64,000 nt of DNA from Candidatus Kapaibacterium sp. (lineage in GTDB: Bacteria > Bacteroidota > Ignavibacteria > Kapaibacteriales > UBA2268), in contig JBAYUQ010000007.1 of assembly GCA_041675005.1 (NCBI GenBank), positions 89 through 64,088 on the forward strand, read 5' to 3'. Below the pieces are notes generated by a model that was not told where the DNA came from, did no database searches, and saw nothing but the letters and a program-made list of their open reading frames with translations. The translations under genes were made by a program, and so were the position numbers. How positions within the stretch are numbered: position 1 is the first letter of the stretch; the number at the start of each line of letters is the position of its first letter. This document shows, in pieces, positions 1,327 through 42,557 of the stretch.

Positions 1327-1337
1327 GAGGACACCTT

Positions 1338-1649
1338 ATGAGTGAATTAGGGAAATATCGAAAATGTGATATTTGTTGTGAATGGCACTGGACTGGTAAC
1401 AATTGTGCCCCAGCTTACGAGGTATTCCACGATGAGTATATGGGTGAGGAATCCCAAACTGTTAGAGCACATAGCTTATCTGGTGCAGCTGAAAAGTACG
1501 CACAGAAATACAATGAAGGTGATGGGGAATACACAATGATGGACGGTGAGGAAATAATCTTAAGAGTAGTTAAGGGTAGCGATGAAGCTACATTTTCGGT
1601 AAGTGCTACACCGAGTATTGATTATCATGTTAATGAGGTGGAACAATGA
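1338..1649 (+). CDS. hypothetical phage protein
   Basis: 103-aa ORF preceded by AGGAGG at 1324-1329. Confidence 0.5.
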   Translation: MSELGKYRKCDICCEWHWTGNNCAPAYEVFHDEYMGEESQTVRAHSLSGAAEKYAQKYNEGDGEYTMMDGEEIILRVVKGSDEATFSVSATPSIDYHVNEVEQ

Positions 1650-2410
1650 AATTAACAGCAGACCAAATACAAGCAATAGCAGACAGAATAACGCAACCAC
1701 TAGTCATATTTGACTTAGAGACAACAGGAATTGACAAAGCAAGAGATGAGATTGTTCAATTTTATGGCTTCAGGATAGAACCTGATGGGGAGCATACTCG
1801 GATGGAGTTCAAATGTAAACCAACTATTCCAATATCAAAGGAAGCATCGGAAGTACATGGAATCACAAATGAAGACTTAATACATGAAGAGCCATTTAGA
1901 TATTATATTCCTGATTTATTAACCTTATTCGATGGATGTATAATTGGTGGATATAATGTCTTCAACTTCGATTTACCAATTATCAATCGACAATTTGCAG
2001 AGCATGGAGAGATAGGAGTATTTAAAGAGGCCCATGTTCTCGACTCATTTAAGCTAGCAATGATTCAGCATCCTAGAGATTTATCTTCAATGCTAAAGGT
2101 TTATACTGGCGAGGATATGGAGAACGCTCACGATGCAGGAGCTGATGTTCATGCAACAGGAAAGATACTAGTAAAGCAGTTAGAGATAGATGAAGACATA
2201 GTACTTGCCATAGCAGAAAAAACAGCACCACCGCCTAATGAGAGGGTAGGATTAACTAACTCAATAATCTTTGTGGATGGTGAGCCGGAGTTCAATTTTG
2301 GAAAGCACAAGGGACAGAAATTACTTGATAATTTAAGTTATTGCCGTTGGATGTTGGGATCTGATTTTGATAATGATGTAAAGGATTTTATTAGAAATTT
2401 AATGATGTAA
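1646..2410 (+). CDS. DnaQ-like (DEDDh) 3'-5' exonuclease
   Basis: Exo I motif 'IFDLETTG' near the N-terminus and Exo III-like 'HDAGADVHATGKI'. 4-nt overlap with the upstream gene. Confidence 0.7.
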   Translation: MKLTADQIQAIADRITQPLVIFDLETTGIDKARDEIVQFYGFRIEPDGEHTRMEFKCKPTIPISKEASEVHGITNEDLIHEEPFRYYIPDLLTLFDGCIIGGYNVFNFDLPIINRQFAEHGEIGVFKEAHVLDSFKLAMIQHPRDLSSMLKVYTGEDMENAHDAGADVHATGKILVKQLEIDEDIVLAIAEKTAPPPNERVGLTNSIIFVDGEPEFNFGKHKGQKLLDNLSYCRWMLGSDFDNDVKDFIRNLMM

Positions 2411-2415
2411 ATATA

Positions 2416-2486
2416 CTCCCCTCCTCGTTCAATAACGACATAAGCTCTCCGCATTGATAGACACACTTGGAGGGGGGATTTTTAAA
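2416..2486 (+). terminator. GC-rich 9-bp stem (CTCCCCTCC / GGAGGGGGG) with an unusually large ~44-nt loop, followed by ATTTTT
   Basis: Read directly: 2416-2424 pairs with 2469-2477; T-run at 2478-2483. Lies between the exonuclease gene and the next ORF. Confidence 0.3.
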
Positions 2487-2495
2487 GAAATCGAG

Positions 2496-2798
2496 ATGGA
2501 AATGGGCAGAGCGAAAAAAATAATACATGATTATTCGGATCTAGAAAGATTCCCAAAGCGTCCAACTATAAATGATTTTTCAAATTTAGAAAAAGTAAAA
2601 TGGAACTTTGTTTACATACAAACTTTAGGACCGAATATTAGAATTTACAACCAAAAAAAGAGTGATTATATCAGCCTATGTAATTGGGATTTACATAGGA
2701 TTAATGCTCCTTTTTTCAATGATATGGATTCATATAAAAATGTAATACGAAATTATTTAAGTGAAAAAAGTATCTCTTTTCAAGAGTTTCTTTTTTAA
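2496..2798 (+). CDS. hypothetical protein (moron-like)
   Basis: ORF track starts at a TTG at 2454 inside the hairpin. The first ATG is at 2496 (MEMGRAKK...). Locally very AT-rich. No motif. Confidence 0.35.
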   Translation: MEMGRAKKIIHDYSDLERFPKRPTINDFSNLEKVKWNFVYIQTLGPNIRIYNQKKSDYISLCNWDLHRINAPFFNDMDSYKNVIRNYLSEKSISFQEFLF

Positions 2799-2838
2799 TT
2801 ATTTATTACACATACAGATAAAAGATTAACAAAGGAGA

Positions 2839-3426
2839 GTGAGGATGCGAGCAATAAAAGACCCTGTTAGAGAAACCTATGGAATGGATTATTCGGCAAG
2901 ATTTACTGATGAATTTGAAAAACTAATTGAACTGGCTAAGGAAAAGATTGAGCCGTTCAGCAAAAAAGAAATATCATACTGGACATACTATTTTGAAATT
3001 AACGGAGAGGATGTTGCAAGTGAATTTGATTGCTGTGATGATGTGAAGTGCATTGAGCAAACAAAAACAGAAATTAAAGAGCAATACGGCGAAGACACCC
3101 AAATTGAAGAAGTCTATTATGATAATGATGGTGACCATGAAAGAATTGAAATATGTTCCCAATGCGGGAAGCCATTAAATGAATGGCTAACTTGGTGTGG
3201 AGATGAGCTTAAATACATTGAAGAAAATGAATGGACTGCTGATTTCCTTAAAGAAGAAGCCTTTTTAATTCACTGTATTTTCCAAAGTATGCCTACTTGT
3301 GATAATAGAATATCTGAATATGCTAAACATCAAGGCGGAGATGTTCTGACACAAGCAATTGAAAATAGAGAGTTATTTTTTCAACGAATTGGGAAACTAG
3401 CACAATGCGTTATAGGTTATTTTTAA
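2839..3426 (+). CDS. hypothetical phage protein, Cys-rich
   Basis: 195-aa ORF with AAAGGAG leader. Several Cys pairs (CCDDVKC, CSQCGKP, WCGDEL); possible zinc-binding. Confidence 0.5.
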   Translation: MRMRAIKDPVRETYGMDYSARFTDEFEKLIELAKEKIEPFSKKEISYWTYYFEINGEDVASEFDCCDDVKCIEQTKTEIKEQYGEDTQIEEVYYDNDGDHERIEICSQCGKPLNEWLTWCGDELKYIEENEWTADFLKEEAFLIHCIFQSMPTCDNRISEYAKHQGGDVLTQAIENRELFFQRIGKLAQCVIGYF

Positions 3427-3435
3427 CAAAGGAGT

Positions 3436-3705
3436 ATGATTATGGTATCAATACCACAACTAATTAAGAAAGGAGATAGAAGTGTATTATTAGGTATGCA
3501 CAAGACTCCGCCTGCAGTTGATTGTAGGGTATGGGCTGAAGACAACTATCAAGAAGTCATTGATATGTTATCAGAGATTAGACAGTATGACATTGAGAGT
3601 TATGTAAATAGTGGAACAGCTCTATTGCCTCATCAGTTGAGACAAAGAATTCAGAAGTTTTTAGAACTCAATGATCGTAAATTTAAAGTAAGAATTACAG
3701 AGTAA
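3436..3705 (+). CDS. hypothetical phage protein
   Basis: 89-aa ORF, AAAGGAG leader. Confidence 0.4.
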   Translation: MIMVSIPQLIKKGDRSVLLGMHKTPPAVDCRVWAEDNYQEVIDMLSEIRQYDIESYVNSGTALLPHQLRQRIQKFLELNDRKFKVRITE

Positions 3706-3716
3706 AGGAGAATTAA

Positions 3717-3935
3717 ATGGGTGGGTTACAAAGACTCTGCAAGATATACGGACGGCTTCAAGTAAAAGATAAGCATGGCAACTCTACAATGTGGGTTTGG
3801 GATTACAAGAATGATAAGCCAATGTTAGAATCAGAGATGACAAAAGAAACAACTATGGAAAGCGACAAAGCCAAGTATAATTTAATTAAAGAACACTTGG
3901 ATAAAGAGAATATACTATTTGGGGAGTTAAAATGA
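3717..3935 (+). CDS. hypothetical phage protein
   Basis: 72-aa ORF, AAGGAG leader. Confidence 0.35.
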   Translation: MGGLQRLCKIYGRLQVKDKHGNSTMWVWDYKNDKPMLESEMTKETTMESDKAKYNLIKEHLDKENILFGELK

Positions 3936-4291
3936 TTTTAGGATTCAAAAAACAGTTTATAGAACCGATTAAAAACGGTACAAAGATTCACACAATTCGT
4001 GAAGATAAACCAGGTAGATGGAAAGCTGGGAATATAATCCACTTTGCTACTGGTATACGAACAAAAGAATATAATCAGTTCCACGAAGGTAAATGCAAAT
4101 CAACACAGAAAATTGTGATTAGTTATAGTCACCCAAGACCTTGTATTTATATAGATGATAAAGTCTTTTGGGATTTTGAAGCTGAAAAGGTGGCTCTAAA
4201 TGACGGATTTGATTCATTAGAAGATTTCTTCAAGTGGTTTAACAAAGACTTCACTGGTAAGATTATTCATTGGACAGATTATAAATATTAG
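3932..4291 (+). CDS. ASCH/PUA-like domain protein (putative)
   Basis: N-terminus 'MILGFKKQFIEPIKNGTKIHTIR' resembles the ASCH beta-barrel start (F..I..G.K..E.R). Tentative. Confidence 0.35.
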   Translation: MILGFKKQFIEPIKNGTKIHTIREDKPGRWKAGNIIHFATGIRTKEYNQFHEGKCKSTQKIVISYSHPRPCIYIDDKVFWDFEAEKVALNDGFDSLEDFFKWFNKDFTGKIIHWTDYKY

Positions 4292-4301
4292 GAGATTAAC
4301 A

Positions 4302-4739
4302 ATGAAAGTTAAAAACTACACATCAACAGTCCCAGCTTCACGATCAATGGCAAGAATAGAAGAACTCTTGGTAGAGGTTGGAGCTAAAAACATCAACAAA
4401 GAATACGTTGACAAAAAGGTAACAGCATTCTATTTTTTAGTAGACGTGAATCAGAAGAGTATGTTATTTAAACTGCCTGCGAAAGCAGAAGCAATAGAGA
4501 AAGTACTCAAAGCTGAGGTTAAGAAACCACAAGCTAATACTTATAAGAACATTGAAGCTCAATCTGAAAGGACAGCATGGAAGATTATTTGTGATTGGGT
4601 AGAAATCCAATGCACTATGATATATTTAGAGCAGGCAGAGCTTGCTCAAGTGTTCCTACCTTATAGTTATGATACCAAGAGTGAAACAACTCTGTGGGAG
4701 CAGGTTAAAAATAATGATTTTAAAATATTGCAAGAATGA
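4302..4739 (+). CDS. hypothetical phage protein
   Basis: 145-aa ORF, TAGGAG leader. Last gene before the bidirectional terminator. Confidence 0.45.
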   Translation: MKVKNYTSTVPASRSMARIEELLVEVGAKNINKEYVDKKVTAFYFLVDVNQKSMLFKLPAKAEAIEKVLKAEVKKPQANTYKNIEAQSERTAWKIICDWVEIQCTMIYLEQAELAQVFLPYSYDTKSETTLWEQVKNNDFKILQE

Positions 4740-4808: not shown

Positions 4809-6164
4809 TTAATACTTAATAAATTTTGTATATACAACTTCTTGATTTGCAAATCTTATATAATACACACCAGTATTCAAATTTGAAATATCTAATTGGG
4901 CATTAAATAAATTCCCAATAATATTGGTATATTTAATTTCATTTATTTTTTGTAAACTGCCTTTAGAATCATATAATTTCATGTCTAGGTTTGATAATCT
5001 TTTATCATATATATATATTTCAATGTTAAGATATTCACTATTATTGGGATTAGGGTACGTATTTGTAATTAATAAATTAGCCAACCCCCATTGCTTGTCA
5101 GGATCCTCAACAGATGAAATAGTAAGTAAATCAGGAGCGTAAGCCTTGAATATACCTGAGCTTAATGTACCCACCCATAAAGTATCATTCTCATCTATGT
5201 CCATTGTAGTTATATACCACATATTATCTATATCATCACCTAATATTTTAGGTTTTGGAATAAGTATCGTGTCTGATAAATTTGTGAAATATAATTTATC
5301 CCCAAGTGCATAGAATAATCCATTATTATTATAATCAACAACGGAAGTAATTTGAGTAATATCCCAATCAGGATTTCTAAAAGTTAAATGAAATGCAGGA
5401 TATAAAAGATCTTTGCTCATAACCAATAATGTTGCAGAGGAATCCTTATTTACATAATTAAAATAGTAACTTAATCCTGAATCGAAAAACCCATAGAATT
5501 CTTTAATATTAGAAGTATCAAATTGTAATCTGTCATTTATATTTTTAACTTGCCCAGAACTAAATTCTAATAAGTTCAATTCTGTGTTTGTGCTAAAAAG
5601 TGCCTTATGAGTTTCATTAACTTCTAAAATTAAAGCACCACCAGTTCCAATTTGTGTTTCTTCATTTGGCATAATTAATTTCTCGTTTGGTAATTGTTTG
5701 TATTTATTATTAGCTATGTCCCAAGCAAATTTTACCATTTCTCTTGAAATTAATGTCAATACTAAAGTATCATTTGGAGTTAGAGAAATCCCACGATTGA
5801 ACTGTATATAATTAATATCATTTGCTCCTAATACTGTCCAATTTTTGCCGTCATACCAAGCAATACCATTATTATTCCTCCCTATCAAATTCCCATGTTT
5901 ATCTAATGTTAAACTTCTGAGTCCACAAAAGAAAAGCTCTTCTACAACAGGGTTTGCATCTTTAGGTACAAATAATCCGTTTTCATACTTGTAGATTTCG
6001 GTTGGAGTGGACAACCACTTTTCACCATTTAATATTTTGAATTCCGTAATAGTGCTAATTTTACTACCTTGATTATCCAAATTCACCCATTCCCAGTCTG
6101 AAGAGAATAAATTCAAACAGGAAAAATAAGATAATATAATAATAGTTGTGAAGAGCTTTTTCAT
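4809..6164 (-). CDS. T9SS-sorted secreted protein with beta-propeller-like repeats
   Basis: N-terminal signal peptide. C-terminal ~80 aa match the Por/T9SS C-terminal sorting domain (YPNP...LYD.KG....I.NL.TGVYYIRF...VYTKFIK). Internal 'WYDGKNW' and 'LWVGTLSSGIF' resemble two-component-regulator propeller repeats. Confidence 0.65.
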   Translation of the reverse strand: MKKLFTTIIILSYFSCLNLFSSDWEWVNLDNQGSKISTITEFKILNGEKWLSTPTEIYKYENGLFVPKDANPVVEELFFCGLRSLTLDKHGNLIGRNNNGIAWYDGKNWTVLGANDINYIQFNRGISLTPNDTLVLTLISREMVKFAWDIANNKYKQLPNEKLIMPNEETQIGTGGALILEVNETHKALFSTNTELNLLEFSSGQVKNINDRLQFDTSNIKEFYGFFDSGLSYYFNYVNKDSSATLLVMSKDLLYPAFHLTFRNPDWDITQITSVVDYNNNGLFYALGDKLYFTNLSDTILIPKPKILGDDIDNMWYITTMDIDENDTLWVGTLSSGIFKAYAPDLLTISSVEDPDKQWGLANLLITNTYPNPNNSEYLNIEIYIYDKRLSNLDMKLYDSKGSLQKINEIKYTNIIGNLFNAQLDISNLNTGVYYIRFANQEVVYTKFIKY

Positions 6165-6176
6165 TTTAGATACCTT

Positions 6177-6977
6177 TTACCAGTTTGCTATGTTTGTAAT
6201 GTCAAATTGATTTAAATAATAAGTGTCCTCATAATTCAACACATCTGAATCTGTAGGGTCTTTTTTCTTTGTAGTAGATGGAAAACAATCTCCAGGATAG
6301 CAATCATATGTTTGTTGAGTTATAGGTTCATAATAATCCCCAGGACATTCTGTTCCACCAGTTGTAATAAGGGTCCTTTGAAATGTTGAATATTGAACAC
6401 CGTTATTAATAACATAACAATACTTATATTCATATTTACAGTACCCTTCTGTATTACAAGGTGATTTTACCAACCTTCCACCTTGTGTTGTCCACTCATA
6501 ATAAGCTTCAGACAAACACTTAGCTGAATATACATCATAAAATTTATTATTATAATTTGGACATTCACTAATTGACCCATCTCCGAATATATTCATTTGA
6601 TTAACAATAACACTCACTGCTCTATCATGCATCAACGCTTTCTTCTTGTTATATTCGTTTAAACAACTTGAAAACCACCACCAAGGTGTTGATCCTGAAA
6701 CTACTTGTCTTCCTAGTATAATCTCTTTTTTACCATTAACAGTTCTATAACACCACTCATACTCTACCCAACAACTTGCCGTTATATGAACTCTTGTATT
6801 TGGTGTACCAGGTGTCCAAGCAGGTGTTGTACTTACACCATTTGGAATCCAATTACATTGAGCACTTAATTCATTTGCTCCAGATAATAAGAGTAAGGCA
6901 GTAAGACTAAACATTAATATCATAGTTTTAACTAGACTTCTACCTAAATATTCTTTGTAATCTATTACTCTTTCCAT
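6177..6977 (-). CDS. secreted Cys/Trp/Tyr-rich hypothetical protein
   Basis: Signal peptide (MILMFSLTALLLLSGANELSAQ; the true start is probably this internal Met). Mature part has ~18 Cys and many W/Y. No known motif. Confidence 0.45.
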   Translation of the reverse strand: MERVIDYKEYLGRSLVKTMILMFSLTALLLLSGANELSAQCNWIPNGVSTTPAWTPGTPNTRVHITASCWVEYEWCYRTVNGKKEIILGRQVVSGSTPWWWFSSCLNEYNKKKALMHDRAVSVIVNQMNIFGDGSISECPNYNNKFYDVYSAKCLSEAYYEWTTQGGRLVKSPCNTEGYCKYEYKYCYVINNGVQYSTFQRTLITTGGTECPGDYYEPITQQTYDCYPGDCFPSTTKKKDPTDSDVLNYEDTYYLNQFDITNIANW

Positions 6978-7066
6978 AAAAATACCTCTAAAATGTTTTA
7001 AAAATAAAATTAAAGAGTTAAGTTTGTAAGTATCAAATTTGGATGTAGTAATTTTTTTTTGATACT

Positions 7067-7108
7067 AGGTCGATCTTAACTCAAAAAGTTTTTATCGACC
7101 TTTTTATT
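7067..7108 (+). terminator. Hairpin AGGTCGAT-N19-ATCGACCT followed by TTTTTATTT (terminator-like on + strand only)
   Basis: Read directly. On the minus strand the hairpin is followed by an A-run, so it is orientation-specific. Confidence 0.3.
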
Positions 7109-7203
7109 TCATAATCATTTTACCCTCCTGAAAATATAAAATATAAAAAATACTTTCTCAATTCTTATTGCAAAATTATAAAATTGAATTAAATTCATAT
7201 TAC

Positions 7204-7249
7204 TCTAAAAGTTCAGTGAGGAATTTTTAGACCCCACTGAACTTTTAAG
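7204..7249. promoter_or_regulatory. Palindromic copy pair of the motif TAAAAGTTCAGTG (12-bp perfect inverted repeat, 17-nt spacer)
   Basis: CTCTAAAAGTTCAGTGAGG at 7204-7222 and its reverse complement at 7232-7249. The same 14-mer recurs at 9475-9488 and 9526-9539. Confidence 0.5.
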
Positions 7250-7261
7250 TTAATCAGATAA

Positions 7262-7534
7262 TTATGAATGATTTGTAATAGTTTCTTCTTTGGGCTCTCC
7301 CCAACCTTCTAATACCGTTTTTAAAGTAGCCCCCATTATTGTACCCGAAGGACCTAATTCAGAAGGTAGAACACAAGAATTAGGTGCTGAAAACATTGAT
7401 TCATATACAACAAGCCATTCACTTTGACCATCTTGTTTATATTTAAGTTTTAGCCCTTGCGTACCTAAAGGTAAATCATATGTTAGAGTATTATTCGTCC
7501 AATTGTAATTCGTTGGTGAACTTGATGTTGACAT
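7262..7534 (-). CDS. hypothetical protein (uncertain)
   Basis: 90-aa ORF overlapping the 3' end of the TPR gene by 44 nt in another frame. Could be real or an artefact. Confidence 0.25.
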   Translation of the reverse strand: MSTSSSPTNYNWTNNTLTYDLPLGTQGLKLKYKQDGQSEWLVVYESMFSAPNSCVLPSELGPSGTIMGATLKTVLEGWGEPKEETITNHS

Positions 7535-8930
7535 TTTGTCTCCTATTTGATAATTTTAAATTAGATAAATGTTCCGATACCTTATTGGAACCTTTTTGTA
7601 AGTCTTCTATTGTTTTTACAAACATATCATCATCTGTAAATATATTACTCAATAACATTAGGTTCGTCATTTTGGCAATATTATTCTGAACATCAGTTTT
7701 GTGCATTAATCTTGTTTCTTCATTATAGTTATTAACTGTTTTCTTAAATGCTGAAAGAACATTTTTCGTTATGATATACTTAATTGTTATTGGTATTAAG
7801 AGAACTAAAACAAAGATTAGTATTGATAAAAACTCTACACTTGTCCATGCAAATTTGACTTCCTTATTTAATTCAATGATAGTTCTTTCTATTTCTTCCT
7901 TTATGATTAATTCATTTTCTAATTCATTAGAATATAGTTCTGCTTCTTCAGTTCTAAATTTTAAGATTAAATCACTCCTATTAAAATTGGATTTAATATT
8001 CAAATTTCTAACGACAATACTAAAAAACTTAGTAATCTCAATAGCTTGAACGAAATTATTATTTTCAGTATAAATCGAATTTGCTTTATTTAAATATGTT
8101 ACAGCATTTTTAAAGTTATTTTTATAAAGTGAGTAGATAGATGCTTTAAAATTAGCATCAGCTATTTCCTCAGGACCAAGTTTATCCGAATCAACTAAGT
8201 ATTCTTCGAAATCATCTTCATTGTTTATAGTATCTCCAGCGGCTATGAAATAAAGATTTCGATTTGTAACAAAAAAGAGTCTATCATTTCTATTAGTATT
8301 CTCGCTTAGATTATTTAAAACTTTATCAGCATATAACTTAGAATTTGAATAATCTTCTTTTTTTGAATAGACAACCCCTATACTGTTCCAAATCTGATTA
8401 ATGATTCTACTATCTTCAATATCTGCTACTTTTAAAGCGAGATAATAGTATTTCAATGCTAATTCAAGTTTATTTAAATAAACCGAAGCATGCCCTAAGT
8501 TTATATAATTATGAGTTAACCTTTCATTAAGTCCAATCTCTTTATTAATTTCAATACATTTCTTTAAATAAAATATAGCATTTTGATTAAGTCCTTTTCT
8601 AATGTAGCAAACTGATAAGTCATTCAATACAGTAGAGTAGAGCTTTTGATTTATAGAATTTTTTAGCAATTTTTCTGAAATTAAAAAGTACTTTAGTGCA
8701 GAGTCTAACTCACCTAATCCTATATAATTGGAACCTAATCCAAAATATGCTTCACTCATTTCATCTCTATTTTTCATAGAGTTTAAATTATCTAAACAAC
8801 TTTCAATTTTATGTATTGAACTTGAATACTTTCCTTTCTTATAAAGTTCTTTACTCTCATTAATGCATGTGTTACTAAACATATGATTAGTTGACAATAT
8901 AAGAACAAATGTATATATCAGCACTTTCAT
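7491..8930 (-). CDS. TPR-repeat membrane sensor-like protein (extracytoplasmic TPR domain, one TM, short cytoplasmic tail)
   Basis: Signal peptide, then ~7 TPR-like repeats (AYFGLGSNYIGLGELDSALKYF, LALKYYYLALKV...), a coiled-coil, a TM segment (FLSILIFVLVLLIPITI) and a ~95-aa tail. No kinase or HTH domain seen. Confidence 0.55.
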   Translation of the reverse strand: MKVLIYTFVLILSTNHMFSNTCINESKELYKKGKYSSSIHKIESCLDNLNSMKNRDEMSEAYFGLGSNYIGLGELDSALKYFLISEKLLKNSINQKLYSTVLNDLSVCYIRKGLNQNAIFYLKKCIEINKEIGLNERLTHNYINLGHASVYLNKLELALKYYYLALKVADIEDSRIINQIWNSIGVVYSKKEDYSNSKLYADKVLNNLSENTNRNDRLFFVTNRNLYFIAAGDTINNEDDFEEYLVDSDKLGPEEIADANFKASIYSLYKNNFKNAVTYLNKANSIYTENNNFVQAIEITKFFSIVVRNLNIKSNFNRSDLILKFRTEEAELYSNELENELIIKEEIERTIIELNKEVKFAWTSVEFLSILIFVLVLLIPITIKYIITKNVLSAFKKTVNNYNEETRLMHKTDVQNNIAKMTNLMLLSNIFTDDDMFVKTIEDLQKGSNKVSEHLSNLKLSNRRQNVNIKFTNELQLDE

Positions 8931-9451
8931 TTTTTTATCTCTTTTAATCTATTTCCAATAATATTATTTGCATAGCAATCACCTTCTCCAGTAATGCTCC
9001 AACTAATATTACAGCCTGAGCTCTCTATTCTTTTTAAAATTAAATATGGTATGAATTTTTCGTTTTCAAAGAGTTGTCTTATTTCACCCTTTTTGAAATC
9101 ACGTGCTATTTCATACTCGATAATATTCTCATAATTTGATTCTATCCAAGCTTTAATTCTTTCCTTTTGTATATGGTAATCAAACTCCTCATTGACAATA
9201 GAACTATTTCTATTCTCATCGGGATTCCATTTAGATTTACCAATTCCAGCATAGAGCCAATCAATTGAATATCCAGCTCTAAATATCCTTAGACTAATTT
9301 TTTGAATATTATTCTCTTGCTTTAAATATTTATTTAAAGACTGATGAGATATATCAATTTCATTGGCGAACTCAGATTTAGTTAGTCCTGATAATCTAAA
9401 TAACTTTCTAAATCTTTCAATAATGTCATTTTCATTGTTCGAATTTATCAT
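8927..9451 (-). CDS. XRE/Cro-like helix-turn-helix regulator
   Basis: N-terminal 'SGLTKSEFANEIDISHQSLNKYLKQE' is an HTH_XRE-like signature. 4-nt overlap with the downstream TPR gene (operon). Confidence 0.5.
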   Translation of the reverse strand: MINSNNENDIIERFRKLFRLSGLTKSEFANEIDISHQSLNKYLKQENNIQKISLRIFRAGYSIDWLYAGIGKSKWNPDENRNSSIVNEEFDYHIQKERIKAWIESNYENIIEYEIARDFKKGEIRQLFENEKFIPYLILKRIESSGCNISWSITGEGDCYANNIIGNRLKEIKK

Positions 9452-9471
9452 TTCTTTAAAACTTCCTGTTG

Positions 9472-9545
9472 CTCTAAAAGTTCAGTGACGCAAGATAATT
9501 AAAAAATCATTCAATTTCATTGGCGTAAAAGTTCAGTGAGGGCTG
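9472..9545. promoter_or_regulatory. Two direct copies of CTAAAAGTTCAGTGA(C/G)G, 51 bp apart, in the divergent promoter region
   Basis: 9472-9490 and 9524-9545. Located between the HTH gene (minus, start 9451) and the small-peptide gene (plus, start 9626). Confidence 0.5.
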
Positions 9546-9625
9546 TATTTTTAATATTCACTTGATTTATATTTAAAATATTGATTTTTTTGGAATATTA
9601 ACAATTATAATTTTAGAGAAATACA

Positions 9626-9892
9626 ATGAAAAAAAACATACTTTCAATATTTCTTGTAGTGTCAATGCTTCTAATATTCAATACTTCTGACTTATATTCT
9701 GGAAGAAGGGGTTGTTCCGGTGATAAGTACTGCACAGCTTGCAGCAGCTGTAGTGGATGTAAACATTGTGCTAAAGAGGGTGGTACATGTGGGGTCTGCT
9801 ATACTCCACCCAAGAAGGAACCTAAAGTGAAAACTGAAAAAGATACAATTATCTCAGATAGTTTAAAGGTTAAGAGAAGTAAGAAGAAATAA
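9626..9892 (+). CDS. small secreted Cys-rich peptide/protein
   Basis: 88 aa. N-terminal signal/TM (ILSIFLVVSMLLIF), then 8 Cys in ~35 aa (C-x5-C-x2-C-x2-C-x2-C-x2-C-x6-C-x2-C), then a Lys-rich tail. Confidence 0.45.
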   Translation: MKKNILSIFLVVSMLLIFNTSDLYSGRRGCSGDKYCTACSSCSGCKHCAKEGGTCGVCYTPPKKEPKVKTEKDTIISDSLKVKRSKKK

Positions 9893-10001: not shown

Positions 10002-10877
10002 ATGTTTAAAGAAGCATATGAAATAGCAAGCAAATACATAAAACCACTTATTGTGGTGCTCAGGTACCAAGACAAATCTGTTGAATGTGGATTAGGAACT
10101 TTAATTATATTAAATGACGAAGGCTGGATAATGACAGCTGCACATAATCTAAATGCTTCTAATGCATATAATCAACACCAACTTGAAATAAAAATGTTTC
10201 AAGAAAAGGTTGATAAAATTAACGCTAATCCAAAACTAAATGAAAATAAAAGAAAAAGACTTATTAAAGCAGTTAAAAGTAATCCTAAATGGATTACTGA
10301 TTTTATAATTTGGTTAGGTGCAGACAAAATACAGATTAAAGAGTCTTTCGTTTATAATGACCACGACATTGCATTTATACGTATAGACAAATTATTTATG
10401 AAAGGAATTACAGAATATCCAAAAATTAAAGACCCTCGAAATTTAAAACAGGGAACAAGCTTATGTAAGTTAGGATTTCCATTTTATCATATTAACGCAA
10501 CTTTTGATGAAACAACAAATAAATTTATTTTTCCTAAAAATACTTTCCCAATACCTAGATTTCCAATTGAAGGGATCTATACTAGAAATTTAATTACTGG
10601 TAAAAGCAATGATAAGACAATGGATGTTATGTACATTGAAACATCTTCACCAGGTCTAAAGGGGCAAAGTGGTGGTCCTATAATAGATATAGATGGTAAT
10701 ATTTATGCTGTACAATCTCAGAATTACACGCTACCGCTTGGTTTCAAAGGGAAGGAAGAAATAAATGGTATTGAGATTGAAGAAAGTCAATTTATAAATG
10801 TTGGTGTTGGAGTTCATACAGAGACTATAGTCACCCTTTTGAAAAAACACAAAATCAAACACGACATTGCACCATGA
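10002..10877 (+). CDS. trypsin-like (S1 family) serine peptidase, no signal peptide
   Basis: Triad-like motifs: 'MTAAHNL' (His), 'DHDIAFIRI' (Asp), 'GQSGGPII' (Ser, GDSGGP-like). Confidence 0.65.
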   Translation: MFKEAYEIASKYIKPLIVVLRYQDKSVECGLGTLIILNDEGWIMTAAHNLNASNAYNQHQLEIKMFQEKVDKINANPKLNENKRKRLIKAVKSNPKWITDFIIWLGADKIQIKESFVYNDHDIAFIRIDKLFMKGITEYPKIKDPRNLKQGTSLCKLGFPFYHINATFDETTNKFIFPKNTFPIPRFPIEGIYTRNLITGKSNDKTMDVMYIETSSPGLKGQSGGPIIDIDGNIYAVQSQNYTLPLGFKGKEEINGIEIEESQFINVGVGVHTETIVTLLKKHKIKHDIAP

Positions 10878-10995
10878 ATAATAAACTGCTTATCACACAA
10901 GTATCATGTGCTTACTGCGGAATGTTATAATGGTAAATGCAATAGTCTCTGGAGTAGATAAGCAGAATAATTGAAATATAGTTAATAGGAATAAA

Positions 10996-11502
10996 ATGAA
11001 AAAAGATATAAATTACGAAGTAGCATTTATTGTTTCAATTATAGGAGGAATGTTAGGAATCGATCGGTTCTATGTTGGGGATATTGGTCTTGGCATTTTG
11101 AAGCTTTTCACAGCTGGTGGTTTTTTTGTCTGGTATATTACAGATATTATAAAGTTTAATAAGTTAAGAATTGAACAGCGAATTGAGCAAAATAAGTTAT
11201 CAGATGAAGAGAGGGAAAAAAGAAGAAAAGAAGAATTGGAAAAAGAGGAACAAAAAAAACGACTTTTACTGTCAAAATATAGTCCCGAGATAGTTGCAAG
11301 AATACAATTAAAGAAACCTGCAATTGGGGATACTTTTGATATCATTAAAGAGATGTTCGGAAATCCTGTTAAATATGATAAAGAAGAAACGGCGAAAACT
11401 ACTAAATATACTCTAAAGTATTACGAAGGACAAAAGGGATCCTACAAGTTAGTGATTGAACTTAAGGATGATTTAGTTTCAAAAATAACTGATAAAAGAT
11501 AA
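10996..11502 (+). CDS. TM2-domain membrane protein
   Basis: 'GGMLGIDRFYVGDIGLGILKLFTAGGFFVWYITD' matches the TM2 signature (G..G.[DH]RFY.G......QL.T.GG.G.W...D). Followed by a KE-rich linker and a C-terminal soluble domain. Confidence 0.65.
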   Translation: MKKDINYEVAFIVSIIGGMLGIDRFYVGDIGLGILKLFTAGGFFVWYITDIIKFNKLRIEQRIEQNKLSDEEREKRRKEELEKEEQKKRLLLSKYSPEIVARIQLKKPAIGDTFDIIKEMFGNPVKYDKEETAKTTKYTLKYYEGQKGSYKLVIELKDDLVSKITDKR

Positions 11503-11516
11503 ATAGAGAGTTAAGA

Positions 11517-11786
11517 ATGTCAATAGAATTAAAAAGAAGTGATTTAAAGTTTGAATATATTTGGACGAGAGACAATGGTGACTCTCTTAGTACTGATGAG
11601 CGAGATAGAAGTAAAATAGATTTGGATGAAGGATATGAAGTGCTTCATTTCTTAAATTCATTATATAAAGACTTAAATATTAATATTAAAATAGAGGCTT
11701 TGTATATTGAAGATTTACTATATCAAAAACCTGGTAAATTACAGATTAGGAAGGATATTAAGGATTGGATAAAAACACAAATCTGA
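11517..11786 (+). CDS. hypothetical protein
   Basis: 89-aa ORF, AAGAATG start context. No motif. Confidence 0.35.
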   Translation: MSIELKRSDLKFEYIWTRDNGDSLSTDERDRSKIDLDEGYEVLHFLNSLYKDLNINIKIEALYIEDLLYQKPGKLQIRKDIKDWIKTQI

Positions 11787-11801
11787 AATAGTGTTATAAT
11801 C

Positions 11802-12428
11802 TTATTTTATAACATTTATAAACCAATATGCTTCAATCTTATCTGCTAATATTTGACCTGAGTGTACAACTCTCCCCAAATTTCGTTTATTCTCTTCACT
11901 CGGCCAAGGATCTCGAACAATTATATTTGTTATTATAGGTCCAATTTGAGATAAATAATAGCTTACTGCAGTTACAACAACAGCATGACCAGAATTAGGA
12001 CCCGTTTTATAAGCTATAATGACAGGCCTTTGATTTATAAGTTGTTCGATAAGTGTAGCTGGTGTAGGGGCTCCTCTTCCCATTAAAGCTTGGACAGTAT
12101 AAGCATATCCATAACTATCAATACCCCAATTGTTTAAGTTATAATGAATCGATTCTAGTGAACCTCCCCAGTTAGGTAAGTTTCCATAATCATCAGTTCC
12201 ATATGTACGATAAACAATTTGTTCTTGACTAATATTTACACCATAGCCAGTTAAAACCATTTGGATTGATGCAGCCCAACACCATTGAGAACTATTTTGT
12301 TTCGCTGAATAAAAGTTTACAACTCCAGATGGAACACCGACAGTTATTTGTTGTGCATTAGTATTTAATGTTGCGATAGCTAACAATAAAGGAATACAAA
12401 AAGTGAATTTAATATTGACATGTCTCAT
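11802..12428 (-). CDS. secreted papain-like cysteine peptidase-like protein (Peptidase_C39_2/BtrH-like)
   Basis: Signal peptide (MRHVNIKFTFCIPLLLAIATLNTNAQQ). 'QNSSQWCWAASIQMVLTGYG' matches the C39-like Q...C.xAS..M.L nucleophile motif; downstream 'SGHAVVVTAV' is a candidate catalytic His. Confidence 0.55.
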   Translation of the reverse strand: MRHVNIKFTFCIPLLLAIATLNTNAQQITVGVPSGVVNFYSAKQNSSQWCWAASIQMVLTGYGVNISQEQIVYRTYGTDDYGNLPNWGGSLESIHYNLNNWGIDSYGYAYTVQALMGRGAPTPATLIEQLINQRPVIIAYKTGPNSGHAVVVTAVSYYLSQIGPIITNIIVRDPWPSEENKRNLGRVVHSGQILADKIEAYWFINVIK

Positions 12429-12547
12429 AACCTATCCTGATTATTTGATTTAACAATTAAGCTAATACCAATTAAATAAAAAATTCAAACAAAAAGAAAA
12501 AATTACTAAAAAAATACTAGCACTGAACTTATAGAGCAATGCAGGAA

Positions 12548-12955
12548 CTACTTAATAATATCAATAATCTCCCACCCCTTCATAATATGCCTAAAATACT
12601 CATTTGTTGGCTTCAAATCGACTCCAAGCATATCTTCATTAGCGATGTAAACAACACATTCTTTAAGACCGTCGGCAGTCTCTATACTCAAATAACTCTT
12701 GGTATAATGTGCAGGAAATCCCTCATACATATCAAGTATCTTAATCGCTTTCTGGGATAATTTATAAATTATACCAGCAACATAGGAATCATCACAGATT
12801 TCTATGGTTGCATATCCTCGGCCTGGTATATTAGATTTTTTGTTGAAAGTTAGTTTATAACCTTGCAAGACTCCATGTTCCATTCCATAATAAACACCAA
12901 CCCTCTCTTTTAGCCTGTCTGGGTTCATATTTGAACCATATGCGAAGTATAACAT
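12548..12955 (-). CDS. gamma-glutamyl cyclotransferase (GGCT/AIG2/GGACT-like)
   Basis: N-terminal 'MLYFAYGSNMNPDRLKERVG' is the YGSNL/M signature of the AIG2-like/GGCT fold; ~135 aa is typical. Confidence 0.7.
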   Translation of the reverse strand: MLYFAYGSNMNPDRLKERVGVYYGMEHGVLQGYKLTFNKKSNIPGRGYATIEICDDSYVAGIIYKLSQKAIKILDMYEGFPAHYTKSYLSIETADGLKECVVYIANEDMLGVDLKPTNEYFRHIMKGWEIIDIIK

Positions 12956-13060: not shown

Positions 13061-14188
13061 ATGGCAAAGAGTAGAACTCGTAACCGATGGAAACATCCTG
13101 ATCGGAAATTCTGTTATTGCTTTAAGAGACCAGAATCCCCTTTTATTTATACTTCCGTATTCTCCAAGCGTGAAGTAACTGACCTTGTGTGGAAAGAGGC
13201 AAATAAAAACGATGCTATGGCGATTCTAGAGAAAAGGATATCTGAGTATATGAATCCGAACGAGACCGAAGAGAAGACACTTAATGACCTCTTTATTCAG
13301 TATGCGAATGTCTATTATTCAAACTATACCAAAGTTCAACAGTCCAGATACAATAAGGCTATAGAATACCTAATTACTAAGAATTTATTATGTTCTGATA
13401 TCAATGCTATTAGAAATGAAGTATTGAATAATCTAACAGACCTGAATAAAAAATATTCAGAGCCGTATGTTTACAAGATACTAGGTTCACTAAAAAAGAT
13501 TTTTGATTTTGGTATTGAAGAAGAATACTTGACCAGAAATCCCATCAAGAAGGCAATGTTCCCAATAGGAGGTAAAAGAGCAAGACAGATATTTTTTAGT
13601 AAGGAAGAGATTGATAAGCTTCTCCCCTATTGCCGTGAAAAGCGTGGTGATGAGTTTGGAGATTTAGTTGAATTAATCTCTATTATAGGCCCACGAATAA
13701 ATGAAGTAATATTGGGTGAAGTTAAGGATGTTGATTTGGAGAACAAACAAATGACAATTCGAGACTTCAAAAGAGCAAACAAAAACTTTGGAGAGACATT
13801 CACTCCACGATATATTGATATAGAGATATTTGACAATTACACTAGTCTGTATGAATTATTAGAACGTATTATATCAAGAGAAAATGGTAAGTATTATTTT
13901 AGATGGCAATCTTATGCTAATTTAGAGCGATGGTTAAGAGAAGATATGAAAGCTCTTAAAATGTATGAACCAACTAAAAACTTTCACGCTATTCGAAAGT
14001 ATGCAATAAATGAATTTATTTTGAAAGGTTTTCCTGTTTCTTTAGGAAGTCACTTCTTTGGACACAACGAAGCTGTCATGAAAAAGCACTATTTAGAAGT
14101 AATGGGACCTAAGAAATTCAAAGAATTCATACAAAATTCAATGAAAAACGTGCATACTTTACCCAATGAATACCCAGTAGAGAAATAA
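13061..14188 (+). CDS. tyrosine-type site-specific integrase
   Basis: C-terminal catalytic-region motifs 'FHAIRKYA' and 'FGHNEAVMKKHYLEV' (R...H..R...Y pattern). Located 46 bp from the 3' end of tRNA-Lys. Confidence 0.8.
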   Translation: MAKSRTRNRWKHPDRKFCYCFKRPESPFIYTSVFSKREVTDLVWKEANKNDAMAILEKRISEYMNPNETEEKTLNDLFIQYANVYYSNYTKVQQSRYNKAIEYLITKNLLCSDINAIRNEVLNNLTDLNKKYSEPYVYKILGSLKKIFDFGIEEEYLTRNPIKKAMFPIGGKRARQIFFSKEEIDKLLPYCREKRGDEFGDLVELISIIGPRINEVILGEVKDVDLENKQMTIRDFKRANKNFGETFTPRYIDIEIFDNYTSLYELLERIISRENGKYYFRWQSYANLERWLREDMKALKMYEPTKNFHAIRKYAINEFILKGFPVSLGSHFFGHNEAVMKKHYLEVMGPKKFKEFIQNSMKNVHTLPNEYPVEK

Positions 14189-14234
14189 AAAAAGGTTAAC
14201 TACTTTATTACAAGTAATTAACCTTAAATGGTTG

Positions 14235-14307
14235 TGACTCCTACAGGATTCGAACCTGTGGCCCTTTGATTAAAAATCAAATGCTCTACCGGCTGAGCTA
14301 AGGAGTC
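14235..14307 (-). tRNA. tRNA-Lys (anticodon UUU)
   Basis: Manually folded: acceptor GACTCCT/AGGAGTC, D-arm GCTC-AGCCGGTA-GAGC, anticodon stem TTTGA/TCAAA with loop TTTTTAA (anticodon TTT), T-arm ACAGG-TTCGAAT-CCTGT, discriminator A. CCA is not encoded. Confidence 0.85.
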
Positions 14308-42166: not shown

Positions 42167-42174
42167 TTAATTAC

Positions 42175-42555: not shown

Positions 42556-42557
42556 TT

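What the first reader, a model, noticed from the sequence alone, without database searches (positions are those of the whole stretch)
7491..9892. Prophage-borne HTH regulator plus signal-peptide TPR membrane sensor operon, divergent from a small secreted Cys-rich peptide gene: candidate peptide/envelope-signal lysogeny control module
Within the integrated element, an XRE-like HTH gene (8927-9451) is translationally coupled (ATGA overlap) to a 479-aa protein with a signal peptide, an extracytoplasmic run of TPR repeats, a single TM and a ~95-aa cytoplasmic tail with no kinase or DNA-binding domain. Divergently transcribed from the shared 174-bp promoter region is an 88-aa protein with a signal/TM segment and an 8-Cys cluster. 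An XRE-like regulator beside a TPR sensor and a small secreted peptide resembles peptide-sensing lysis/lysogeny systems (arbitrium/RRNPP-like). The difference is that here the TPR domain faces the periplasm and the HTH is a separate polypeptide. That arrangement is not described for phages of this bacterial group. The repeated operator-like motif in the same promoter (next two findings) supports a regulatory switch.
Basis: inference. Interest (0 to 1): 0.55.

Follow-up and report, generated by a model that had tools for sequence, protein, structure and literature searches.

The report
Portable three-gene regulator of mobile-element cargo
The regulator and membrane repeat-protein genes are real, but they belong to a conserved three-gene cassette that appears to switch on neighbouring accessory genes of mobile elements in an uncultured bacterial lineage; it does not look like a peptide-sensing lysogeny switch.

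Summary
The HTH gene and the signal-peptide/TPR/TM gene overlap by ATGA.

The Cys-rich 88-aa gene accompanies the cassette in only 3 of these contexts and is adjacent only here.

The HTH protein models as two tandem lambda/186-CI-like HTH domains, with no S24 peptidase. A separate S24 CI-like repressor with divergent Cro-like genes lies about 13-14 kb to the left, so this cassette is not the element's main immunity switch.

A ~22-nt motif (CTCACTGAACTTTTA..CAA) occurs in three settings:
- as two direct repeats 51-52 nt apart in the cassette promoter;
- as an inverted pair just after the third gene;
- singly, 42-43 nt upstream of TAnnTTTG-type promoter boxes, before neighbouring cargo (T9SS proteins, proteases, SIR2-HerA, TIR, caspase-like genes).

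The motif changes in step with the HTH clade.

Best reading: an autoregulated accessory-gene regulator. Input from a periplasmic TPR sensor is inferred, not shown. The arbitrium-like reading is not supported.

The parts
8927..9451 (-). Gene 1: 174-aa regulator made of two tandem lambda/186-CI-like HTH domains (about residues 10-75 and 92-160) plus a C-terminal helix. No S24 peptidase domain.
   Evidence: ORF. PHROG repressor families reach E 8.5e-9. The AF2 model has pLDDT 79, about 90 in the C-terminal domain, and the same helix pattern appears twice. Foldseek top hits are 186 CI, 434 Cro/repressor and P22 c2, all with weak E-values. hhalign aligns the N- and C-terminal halves in register at the G-x-S/N-I-x-W-x-x-x-G-x-G motif, E 0.0018 but reported probability only 15%. 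The gene is conserved in all loci.
7491..8930 (-). Gene 2: 479-aa protein with a signal peptide, a periplasmic TPR domain, a coiled-coil-like stretch, a single TM (365-383) and a ~96-aa cytoplasmic tail without any known domain.
   Evidence: Pfam TPR hits. Homologs are 28-49% identical. Signal peptide, TM and positive-inside pattern hold in 13 of 13 homologs. The Cys22/Cys45 pair is kept in 12 of 13 and lost together in L008. The tail has no Pfam hit at E<=10. More distant relatives carry HisKA/HATPase_c or SpoIIE after the TPR region.
7262..7534 (-). It overlaps the 3' end of gene 2 by 44 nt.
   Evidence: ORF. It is conserved at 44-73% identity in every complete cassette, more so than the TPR protein. 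About nine standalone ~90-aa clusters exist among 1.8 billion representatives. The AF2 model is low confidence (pLDDT 56) with seven strands. All top Foldseek hits are Fn3 domains, TM 0.5-0.6, E about 0.05.
9468..9491 (-). Proximal operator copy (core TCACTGAACTTTTA at 9475-9488). It is in the sense orientation and starts right after the conserved TTAATTATCTTG box. Inferred autorepression site.
   Evidence: The same position and orientation are seen in all clade-A, -B and -C loci.
9491..9502 (-). Conserved TTAATTATCTTG box between the two operator copies. Candidate core promoter element of the cassette operon (inferred).
   Evidence: Conserved in all loci in the upstream alignment by eye.
9519..9542 (-). 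Distal operator copy (core at 9526-9539), 51 nt upstream of the proximal copy. Read towards the divergent Cys-rich gene, it lies 43 nt upstream of TTTTTTTG (9585-9592).
7199..7254 (.). Inverted pair of operator copies (7206-7219 minus strand, 7234-7247 plus strand) directly after the orf90 stop codon. It can form a 17-bp hairpin. It is followed by TAATTTTG at 7171-7178(-), upstream of the 266-aa and 451-aa secreted-protein genes.
   Evidence: The RNA fold is -26 kcal/mol, z -5.9. The same arrangement occurs in L004, L006, L007, L011, L012 and L013, and in L005/L015 with that clade's own motif.
12519..12540 (+). Single, slightly degenerate operator copy (AGCACTGAACTTATAGAGCAAT), 93 nt upstream of the C39-like peptidase gene and antisense to it.
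   Evidence: one mismatch in the core. One search gives Peptidase_C39_2 for 11802-12428. The 42-nt spacing rule is not met here.
9626..9892 (+). 88-aa protein with a signal/TM segment and 8 Cys. It is the first gene of the divergent operon here (followed by a trypsin-like protease, a TM2 protein and an 89-aa ORF). It is variable cargo, not a conserved member of the cassette.
   Evidence: No family hits. Homologs occur only in L007 and L018.
4809..6977 (-). Downstream same-strand cargo: a 266-aa Cys-rich secreted protein (6177-6977) and a 451-aa protein with a T9SS C-terminal sorting domain (4809-6164). Candidate regulon members.
   Evidence: Pfam Por_Secre_tail at 2.3e-7. Hydrophobic N-terminus of the 266-aa protein. 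Por_Secre_tail genes flank the cassette in most of the loci examined.

Best explanation
The HTH and TPR genes are the first two genes of a conserved, self-contained three-gene regulatory cassette. It is carried by integrative elements, prophages and defence islands of Kapaibacterium/Ignavibacteria-like bacteria.

**Gene 1.** It encodes a DNA-binding protein built from two tandem CI-type HTH domains. I infer that it binds an asymmetric ~22-nt site, CTCACTGAACTTTTA(G/C)(A/G)(G/C)CAA.

**Where the site occurs.**
- In the cassette's own promoter, two sense-oriented copies lie 51-52 nt apart. The proximal copy starts right after a conserved promoter box, so binding there would repress the operon (inferred).
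- The distal copy, and single copies in front of neighbouring genes, lie 42-43 nt upstream of a (TA)nnTTTG box. That places the site centre near -68, which is typical of an activator (inferred).
- A third setting is an inverted pair just after gene 3. It may combine a terminator hairpin with a double operator for the downstream cargo genes.

**What it controls.** The cassette would control accessory cargo of the element. In this window the candidates are the Cys-rich 88-aa/protease/TM2 operon, the two downstream secreted or T9SS proteins, and perhaps a C39-like peptidase. In other loci the cargo includes T9SS proteins, SIR2-HerA, TIR and caspase-like genes.

**Signal input (inferred).** Gene 2 is a periplasm-facing TPR protein with one TM and a ~95-aa cytoplasmic tail. 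It is architecturally a FimS-like sensor that has lost its kinase. I propose that it passes an envelope or extracellular signal to the regulator by protein-protein contact, with the ~90-aa beta-sandwich protein (gene 3) as a possible adaptor.

**Shown versus inferred.** Shown: gene conservation, domain folds, topology features, motif positions and motif co-variation. Inferred: who binds the motif, the sign of regulation, and the TPR-to-HTH signalling.
For: **Cassette conservation.**
- HTH, TPR and orf90 occur in the same order and with overlapping stop/start codons in 15 contexts.

**Regulator fold.**
- The AF2 model shows two HTH-like domains and no S24 peptidase.

**Motif positions.**
- Two direct repeats lie upstream in every clade-A, -B and -C locus, and an inverted pair follows orf90.
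- In the 64-kb window the four exact core copies (plus one with a single mismatch in a 13-nt core) all lie between 7.2 and 12.6 kb, inside the element.

**Co-variation with the cassette clade.**
- Both upstream copies read TGATCTATTA in L001/9/10 and TGAATTTTTA in L014.
- L005 and L015 use a different motif, GAACTTACGG..GACCGTA. It again appears both upstream of the HTH gene and as an inverted pair after orf90.
- The HTH protein is the only DNA-binding fold in the cassette.

**Fixed promoter geometry.**
- TTTG lies at offset 46/47 after the motif in 12 of 33 non-redundant sites, against about 0.8 expected (examples).

**Genes behind such sites.**
- SIR2 (7e-129) with HerA (1e-243), TIR-TM (3e-80), and caspase-like with ThsB-like TIR.
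- T9SS cargo genes.

**TPR topology.**
-.
- Distant relatives carry HisKA/HATPase_c or SpoIIE output domains after the same TPR region, and NCBIfam gives a weak TPR-region hit to FimS.

**The element's main switch is elsewhere.**
- A separate S24 CI-like repressor with Cro-like genes lies in the left flank.
Against: - No experiment or complex prediction links the HTH protein to the motif, or the TPR tail or orf90 to the HTH protein.
- The window and L006/L007 share 90% identical HTH proteins but only 40% identical TPR proteins. A tight, specific HTH-tail contact would have to tolerate this mosaicism.
- The (TA)nnTTTG promoter box is known from Bacteroidetes, not from Kapaibacteria. I applied it from my own knowledge.
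- 21 of 33 sites lack TTTG at the fixed offset. These include the window's C39-peptidase site and the pair after orf90, where the TAATTTTG box starts at offset 53, not 42-43.
- The orf90 fold rests on a low-confidence model (pLDDT 56).
- Foldseek E-values for the HTH model are weak (0.3 or higher).
- The hhalign match between the two halves has a reported probability of only 15%.
- The family is tiny and known only from metagenome assemblies.
Confidence: 0.55

Rival explanations
1. This is an arbitrium/RRNPP-like lysis-lysogeny module. The secreted Cys-rich 88-aa peptide is the signal, the periplasmic TPR protein is its receptor, and the HTH protein is the lysogeny regulator.
For: - The peptide gene is divergent from the HTH gene across a 174-nt region that holds the repeats.
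- The distal repeat sits 43 nt upstream of a TTTG-type box facing the peptide gene, so the peptide gene probably belongs to the regulon here.
- The peptide co-occurs with the cassette in the phage-linked contexts: the window, L007 and L018.
Against: - The peptide gene is absent from 12 of 15 cassette contexts, and it is not adjacent in L007 or L018.
- It has no recognisable propeptide or processing features and no family hits.
- The same element carries a separate S24 CI-like repressor with Cro-like genes.
- The cassette occurs in loci with no phage gene within the 8 kb examined.
- The motif precedes cargo and defence genes, not lytic genes.
- HTH and TPR are separate proteins, and the TPR protein is exported.
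Confidence: 0.05
2. The HTH protein is an autoregulated regulator, but the TPR protein and orf90 are not signalling parts. They would be co-expressed helper proteins for the neighbouring secreted or T9SS cargo, for example a periplasmic scaffold or chaperone.
For: - Genes with a Por_Secre_tail domain lie within a few kb of the cassette in the window and in L001, L005-L011, L014 and L015.
- Periplasmic TPR proteins often act as scaffolds (general knowledge).
- The TPR protein evolves quickly, and it differs along with the downstream cargo between the window and L006/L007 even though the HTH proteins are 90% identical.
Against: - In L012 and L013 the genes behind the motif copies downstream of the cassette are cytoplasmic or membrane defence proteins and a secreted metallopeptidase. 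No T9SS sorting domain was looked for or found in the few neighbours examined there.
- The conserved TM and ~95-aa cytoplasmic tail, with conserved positions, are not needed for a periplasmic chaperone.
- orf90 has no export signal.
- The tight three-gene translational coupling is kept whatever the cargo.
Confidence: 0.15
3. The cassette is itself a defence or exclusion system. It would be a membrane TPR effector or sensor with an HTH regulator and a small partner, acting for example in superinfection exclusion or abortive infection. It would not be a regulator of other genes.
For: It sits in defence islands next to restriction-modification systems, a DUF2806 gene, HATPase_c genes, SIR2-HerA, TIR and caspase-like genes, and on prophages.
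Against: - There is no significant PADLOC model hit beyond generic TPR and HTH matches.
- No enzymatic or pore-forming effector domain is present.
- The motif copies in front of other genes argue for a regulon.
Confidence: 0.1
4. The repeated 22-nt motif is not a protein operator. It would act as RNA, as a 3' terminator or stabiliser hairpin and a 5'-UTR element, or as a recombination or cassette-boundary site that moves the module.
For: - The inverted pair folds into a 17-bp hairpin of -24 to -27 kcal/mol, z between -6 and -9, directly after the orf90 stop codon in five loci.
- Motif copies bracket the cassette.
- Homology between L006, L007 and the window breaks close to the distal copy, and mosaic cassettes exist.
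Against: - Single copies lie upstream of promoter boxes at a fixed 42-43 nt and are antisense to the genes they precede. That puts them in DNA that is probably not transcribed.
- No recombinase travels with the cassette.
- No Rfam family matches.
- The motif co-varies with the HTH clade.
Confidence: 0.1

Closest known systems
RRNPP / arbitrium receptors (AimR-AimP, PlcR-PapR, Rap-Phr)
   Same: An HTH regulator is associated with TPR repeats on a mobile element. In this one window a small exported protein gene lies next to it.
   Different: In that family HTH and TPR are fused in one cytoplasmic protein, and the cognate propeptide gene is always adjacent. Here they are two proteins, the TPR domain is exported behind a signal peptide, and the small gene is not conserved with the cassette. 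The host is a diderm of the FCB group, not a Firmicute.
Bacteroidetes periplasmic-TPR sensor histidine kinases (FimS of Porphyromonas gingivalis type)
   Same: Same layout: N-terminal signal/anchor, periplasmic TPR domain, TM, cytoplasmic C-terminus. NCBIfam gives a weak TPR-region hit to FimS, and distant relatives carry HisKA/HATPase_c.
   Different: There is no HisKA or HATPase_c domain. The cytoplasmic part is a 84-100-aa domain of unknown fold. No response regulator is present. The partner is an XRE-type double-HTH protein.
Phage 186 CI / lambda-434-P22 repressor-type HTH proteins
   Same: It shares the five-helix HTH fold. 186 CI (2fjr) is the top Foldseek hit and a weak profile hit. The layout suggests autoregulation at a divergent promoter, with additional flanking sites.
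   Different: Two HTH-like domains sit in one chain, where those repressors have an HTH plus an oligomerisation or S24 domain. The sites are asymmetric and arranged as direct repeats. The element's probable immunity repressor is a different, S24-bearing protein.
Single-pass membrane regulators that hold a transcription factor (anti-sigma/ECF sigma pairs, Mlc-PtsG, BlaR1-BlaI): comparison of logic only
   Same: An extracytoplasmic sensing domain, one TM and a short cytoplasmic domain are encoded next to a soluble transcription factor in one operon.
   Different: There is no sigma factor, no anti-sigma domain and no protease domain. The cytoplasmic part is C-terminal. A third small beta-sandwich protein is always present. 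The interaction is untested.

Membership tests
RRNPP / arbitrium (AimR-AimP-like) | The receptor is one cytoplasmic polypeptide with an N-terminal HTH (or other effector domain) fused to a TPR-like peptide-binding domain. | tested here: not met
   HTH (174 aa) and TPR (479 aa) are separate ORFs in all loci. The TPR protein has a conserved signal peptide and a TM.
RRNPP / arbitrium (AimR-AimP-like) | A cognate small propeptide gene is conserved next to the receptor gene. | tested here: not met
   Homologs of the 88-aa gene occur in only 3 of 15 cassette contexts, and the gene is adjacent only in the window.
RRNPP / arbitrium (AimR-AimP-like) | The mature peptide is re-imported and binds the TPR domain, changing DNA binding. 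| not testable with these tools
   This needs biochemistry.
CI/LexA-type S24 repressors | A C-terminal peptidase S24 autocleavage domain. | tested here: not met
   There is no S24 hit. The AF2 model shows a second all-helical HTH-like domain at residues 92-160. An S24 protein is encoded elsewhere in the element (L017 3892-4671).
XRE / lambda-repressor-like HTH superfamily | A five-helix HTH DNA-binding fold. | tested here: met
   PHROG repressor and regulator families reach E 8.5e-9 and 1.5e-8. All top Foldseek hits to the AF2 model are lambda-type HTH domains. Pfam HTH_3 itself is below its cut-off (18.9 vs 23 bits).
Periplasmic-TPR sensor histidine kinases (FimS-like) | Signal/anchor, periplasmic TPR domain and TM architecture. 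| tested here: met
Periplasmic-TPR sensor histidine kinases (FimS-like) | Cytoplasmic HisKA (DHp) and HATPase_c domains. | tested here: not met
   There are no such hits for the whole protein or for six tails at E<=10. BLASTP alignment with a TPR kinase relative covers only the TPR region.
Anti-sigma factor / ECF sigma pairs | An adjacent ECF sigma gene and an N-terminal cytoplasmic anti-sigma domain. | tested here: not met
   No sigma gene is present in the cassette in any locus. The cytoplasmic part is C-terminal.
Fibronectin type III-like domain (orf90) | A seven-stranded beta-sandwich of Fn3 topology. | tested here: inconclusive
   The AF2 model has seven strands but pLDDT is only 56. All top Foldseek hits are Fn3 domains, TM 0.5-0.6, E about 0.05. 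There is no Pfam hit.
Known anti-phage defence systems (PADLOC) | A match of the cassette proteins to a defence-system model. | tested here: not met
   Only generic TPR (1.8e-5) and HTH-region (HORMA model, 2e-5, residues 8-59) matches were found, and none for orf90.

The most novel reading that the evidence does not exclude
The cassette is a new type of three-component envelope-to-DNA switch carried by mobile elements. A kinase-less periplasmic TPR sensor detects an envelope event, such as phage attack, surface damage or a secreted cue. Through its tail and the Fn3-like partner it then releases or activates a tandem-HTH regulator. That regulator turns on whatever cargo sits behind its portable operator-promoter module, including anti-phage systems (SIR2-HerA, TIR, caspase-like) and T9SS surface proteins.
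Probability: 0.2. Interest if true: 0.75.

Novelty: new variant of a known kind. Interest (0 to 1): 0.45.

Why it matters
Three things would follow if the reading is right.

- It defines a compact and previously undescribed regulatory cassette in the little-studied Kapaibacteria/Ignavibacteria lineage. The cassette comes with a readable operator code and a fixed operator-to-promoter geometry.
- It shows that mobile elements can carry a portable promoter module and place very different cargo under one regulator, including anti-phage defence operons and secreted T9SS proteins.
- How defence systems are transcriptionally controlled is largely unknown. A regulator apparently wired to a periplasm-facing sensor would give a testable case of envelope-triggered control.

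The finding also removes a tempting false lead. It is not an arbitrium-like system in a diderm host.

Tried and rejected
- **Arbitrium/RRNPP reading.** Rejected on synteny and architecture.
- **HTH as a conventional CI with S24.** Rejected. The S24 repressor is a separate gene in the left flank.
- **Tail as a degenerate DHp/HisKA domain.** A conserved His in 'IHxxxIKNxIAKM' suggested this. I found no Pfam or PDB sequence support, BLASTP against a TPR kinase aligns only the TPR region, and the His is absent in L005. Left open.
- **Known RNA element in the intergenic regions.** Rfam finds nothing except the tRNA.
- **Defence-system membership of the cassette.** No PADLOC support.
- **Scan of IMG/VR with the HTH patterns.** No hit.
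- **Scan of IMG/VR for the 15-nt motif core.** Only 29 single matches, which I judge to be chance level.
- **Metagenome scans.** The two-copy motif pattern and the HTH patterns both found nothing.
- **Structure prediction of orf90 with a deeper alignment.** The 2-sequence model is low confidence.
- **Literature searches.** No description of such a module turned up.
- **Not run.** A full-length TPR model (structure cap reached) and any complex prediction.

Full report
**1. Observation**

- TPR protein: 7491-8930(-), 479 aa.
- HTH protein: 8927-9451(-), 174 aa.
- Cys-rich protein: 9626-9892(+), 88 aa.
- The HTH and TPR genes overlap by ATGA on the minus strand at 8927-8930, and the shared intergenic region is 174 nt.

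The TPR repeats are significant (Pfam TPR_8 1e-15, TPR_2 3e-13, TPR_12 4e-10). The HTH protein matches phage repressor families in PHROGs (E 8.5e-9), but Pfam HTH_3 is below its cut-off (18.9 vs 23 bits). The Cys-rich protein has a hydrophobic N-terminus (residues 3-24), eight Cys between residues 30 and 58, and no family hit.

I call it 'orf90' below. It overlaps the end of the TPR gene by 44 nt.

**2. Setting**

- An identical HTH protein (P0010) is named by NCBI as coming from a Candidatus Kapaibacterium MAG.
- A tRNA-Lys lies at 14234-14307(-) and a tyrosine integrase gene at 13061-14188(+).
- GC content falls to 28-30% between 4 and 12 kb, against 33-38% in most of the rest of the window.
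- Genes at 105-4739 hit PHROG families, including a DNA polymerase exonuclease subunit.
- DNA to the left of the window was recovered as L017. It carries a 259-aa Peptidase_S24 (CI/LexA-type) protein divergent from small genes, including an HTH_17 protein, followed by early-type genes and a PrimPol/VapE primase.

So the element has its own canonical immunity region about 13-14 kb to the left of the module under study.

**3. What is conserved**

Homolog searches and context look-ups gave these contexts:
- L001-L011;
- L012-L016 from GTDB representative genomes, labelled Chlorobiota or Ignavibacteriae MAGs, with one genome holding three copies;
- L018, an IMG/VR viral contig.

tblastn/tblastx shows HTH, TPR and orf90 together, in that order, in every locus.
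- The 4-nt HTH/TPR overlap is kept in the called gene tables.
- orf90 overlaps the TPR gene by 8-62 nt.
- In L004 orf90 is cut by the contig end.
- L016 holds only the first 64 codons of the HTH gene.

Identity of homologs to the window proteins:

| Protein | Identity to window |
|---|---|
| HTH | 35-90% |
| orf90 | 44-73% |
| TPR | 28-49% |

The TPR protein therefore evolves fastest. The window and L006/L007 share HTH at 90% identity but TPR at only 40%, which points to recombination inside the cassette.

The Cys-rich gene has homologs only in L007 (85%) and L018 (88%). In those loci it lies about 1 kb and 3.8 kb from the HTH gene, behind a 255-aa gene. L007 and L018 sit next to phage head, neck and tail genes.

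Other contexts hold:
- T9SS cargo genes, restriction-modification systems, transposases and integrases;
- in L004, a TonB-dependent receptor;
- in L008, housekeeping genes beyond an integrase.

The real trio is HTH-TPR-orf90.

**4. The proteins**

*HTH protein.*
- The AF2 model has mean pLDDT 79, about 90 in the C-terminal half. The same helix pattern appears twice, at residues 10-75 and 92-160, followed by a terminal helix.
- Both halves end in the motif G-x-(S/N)-I-x-W-x-x-x-G-x-G. hhalign aligns the halves in register, E 0.0018 but reported probability only 15%.
- Foldseek hits are all lambda-type HTH domains, led by phage 186 CI, but with weak E-values. A profile of the C-terminal half also weakly hits 186 CI.
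- There is no S24 domain.

*TPR protein.*
- All 13 homologs start with a short hydrophobic segment ending in (A/S)-N-x-C.
- All have one strong TM near residues 360-383, with more K/R after it than before it, and a tail of 84-100 aa.
- Cys22 and Cys45 are present in 12 of 13 homologs and both replaced by Asn in L008. This suggests a disulfide and hence a periplasmic domain (inference).
- The tail has conserved positions but no Pfam or PDB sequence match.
- More distant relatives carry HisKA/HATPase_c or SpoIIE domains after a similar TPR region. NCBIfam gives a weak TPR-region hit to FimS.

*orf90.*
- It has no hydrophobic segment.
- Only about nine ~90-aa clusters exist in 1.8 billion representative proteins.
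- The AF2 model is low confidence (pLDDT 56) with seven strands. All its best Foldseek hits are Fn3 domains.
- I treat 'Fn3-like' as tentative.

**5. The repeated motif**

The consensus is CTCACTGAACTTTTA(G/C)(A/G)(G/C)CAA. It occurs in three settings.

*Own promoter.*
- The ~95 nt upstream of the HTH gene is conserved across loci.
- It holds two sense-oriented copies, 51-52 nt apart. In the window the cores are at 9526-9539 and 9475-9488, on the minus strand.
- A conserved TTAATTATCTTG box lies just before the proximal copy.

*After orf90.*
- An inverted pair follows the orf90 stop codon directly: window 7234-7247(+) and 7206-7219(-). The same is seen in L004, L006, L007, L011, L012 and L013.
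- As RNA the pair would form a 17-bp hairpin of -24 to -27 kcal/mol, z between -6 and -9.

*Single copies before neighbouring genes.* These lie 90-155 nt upstream of the start codon and antisense to the gene.

| Locus | Gene behind the site | Evidence |
|---|---|---|
| window | C39-like peptidase (degenerate copy at 12521) | |
| L011 | 159-aa gene | |
| L012 | SIR2 + HerA operon | PADLOC 7e-129 and 1e-243, |
| L013 | TIR-TM | 3e-80, |
| L013 | caspase-like + ThsB-like TIR | |
| L013 | secreted HExxH peptidase | |

*Other properties of the motif.*
- Within the 64-kb window, all four exact core copies lie between 7.2 and 9.6 kb. The 12521 copy has one mismatch in the 13-nt core and two in the 14-nt core.
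- The motif co-varies with the cassette. Both upstream copies read TGATCTATTA in L001/L009/L010 and TGAATTTTTA in L014.
- The most divergent clade (L005, L015) uses GAACTTACGG-N4-ACCGTA. It again appears upstream of the HTH gene and as an inverted pair after orf90.

*Geometry.*
- Read outward from the motif, TTTG lies at offset 46/47 in 12 of 33 non-redundant sites, against about 0.8 expected. This equals an 8-nt (TA)nnTTTG box starting 42-43 nt after the motif.
- The window's distal copy fits this rule and faces the Cys-rich gene (TTTTTTTG at 9585-9592).
- TAnnTTTG is the -7 element of Bacteroidetes promoters. That is my own knowledge and is not established for Kapaibacteria.
- With that reading the site is centred near -68, an activator-like position. 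The proximal sense copy would cover the start of the cassette's own transcript, a repressor-like position. Both are inferences.

**6. Interpretation**

- The cassette is best read as a portable, autoregulated regulator of accessory cargo on mobile elements.
- The tandem-HTH protein would be the DNA-binding component.
- Signal input through the kinase-less periplasmic TPR protein is inferred, with orf90 possibly assisting.
- In this window the likely regulon is the divergent operon (Cys-rich 88 aa, trypsin-like protease, TM2 protein, 89-aa ORF), the downstream 266-aa secreted protein and 451-aa T9SS protein, and possibly the C39-like peptidase.
- It is not the element's lysis-lysogeny switch, and it is not an RRNPP/arbitrium system.

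Rivals are listed with their evidence in the report sections. They are helper proteins for T9SS cargo, a defence or exclusion system in its own right, and a motif that acts as RNA or as a recombination site. None is excluded by experiment.

**7. Novelty and score**

- The parts are of known kinds: an XRE-type HTH, TPR repeats, and a FimS-like sensor topology.
- The combination was not found in Pfam, NCBIfam, PHROGs, PADLOC or two literature searches. It consists of a kinase-less periplasmic TPR protein, a separate double-HTH protein, an obligatory ~90-aa beta-protein, and a portable operator-promoter module in front of defence and T9SS cargo.
- The family is very small and known only from metagenomes.
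- I rate it a new variant of a known kind and of moderate interest (0.45). The link between a periplasm-facing sensor and defence-gene promoters is the most interesting lead, and it is unproven.

Noticed in passing
L017 3892-5312 (DNA about 13-14 kb left of the HTH gene, same element): A 259-aa Peptidase_S24 CI/LexA-type repressor is divergent from a 68-aa gene and a 90-aa HTH_17 gene. Early-type genes follow, and a PrimPol/VapE primase lies further left. This is probably the element's real immunity switch.
   Followed up: partly
L012 11009-13944; L013 10893-14886: Anti-phage defence operons each carry the cassette's operator plus the 42-nt-spaced TAnnTTTG box in their upstream region. They are SIR2+HerA, TIR-TM, and caspase-like with ThsB-like TIR.
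   Followed up: yes
window 8927-9625 versus 7262-8930, compared with L006/L007: The cassette is mosaic. The promoter, HTH gene and Cys-rich gene are 85-90% identical to L007, but the TPR protein is only 40% and orf90 73% identical. This suggests a recombination breakpoint near the HTH/TPR junction.
   Followed up: partly
L008 2101-2165: A second complete 'repeat - box - repeat' promoter module has no HTH gene behind it. It points into the 3' end of a 1212-aa T9SS gene on the other strand. It may be an orphan or relic promoter, or serve the 221-aa gene about 250 nt away.
   Followed up: no
L016 8001-8192; L002 4666-5198: Two cassette copies look decayed. L016 keeps the promoter repeats but only residues 6-69 of the HTH gene. 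In L002 the HTH gene is split into 76-aa and 93-aa ORFs.
   Followed up: no
window 7491-8930, residues 22 and 45 of the TPR protein: The Cys pair is conserved in 12 of 13 homologs down to 28% identity and lost together (both to Asn) in L008. It is probably a periplasmic disulfide.
   Followed up: yes
window 10002-12955: The island between the cassette and the integrase holds a trypsin-like protease (weak PADLOC match to the protease domain of RT-Protease_XI), a TM2-domain protein, a signal-peptide C39/AvrRpt2-like cysteine peptidase and a gamma-glutamyl cyclotransferase, which PHROGs classes as a moron.
   Followed up: partly
window 42001-44000: GC content drops to 24.5% in a chromosomal stretch that holds ORFs 42823-43845 and 43842-44765 on the minus strand. 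Not examined.
   Followed up: no
window 7060-7110: A second hairpin (GGTCGAT...ATCGACC), flanked by A/T runs, lies between the operator pair and the 266-aa gene. It may be a bidirectional terminator or attenuator (read by eye).
   Followed up: no
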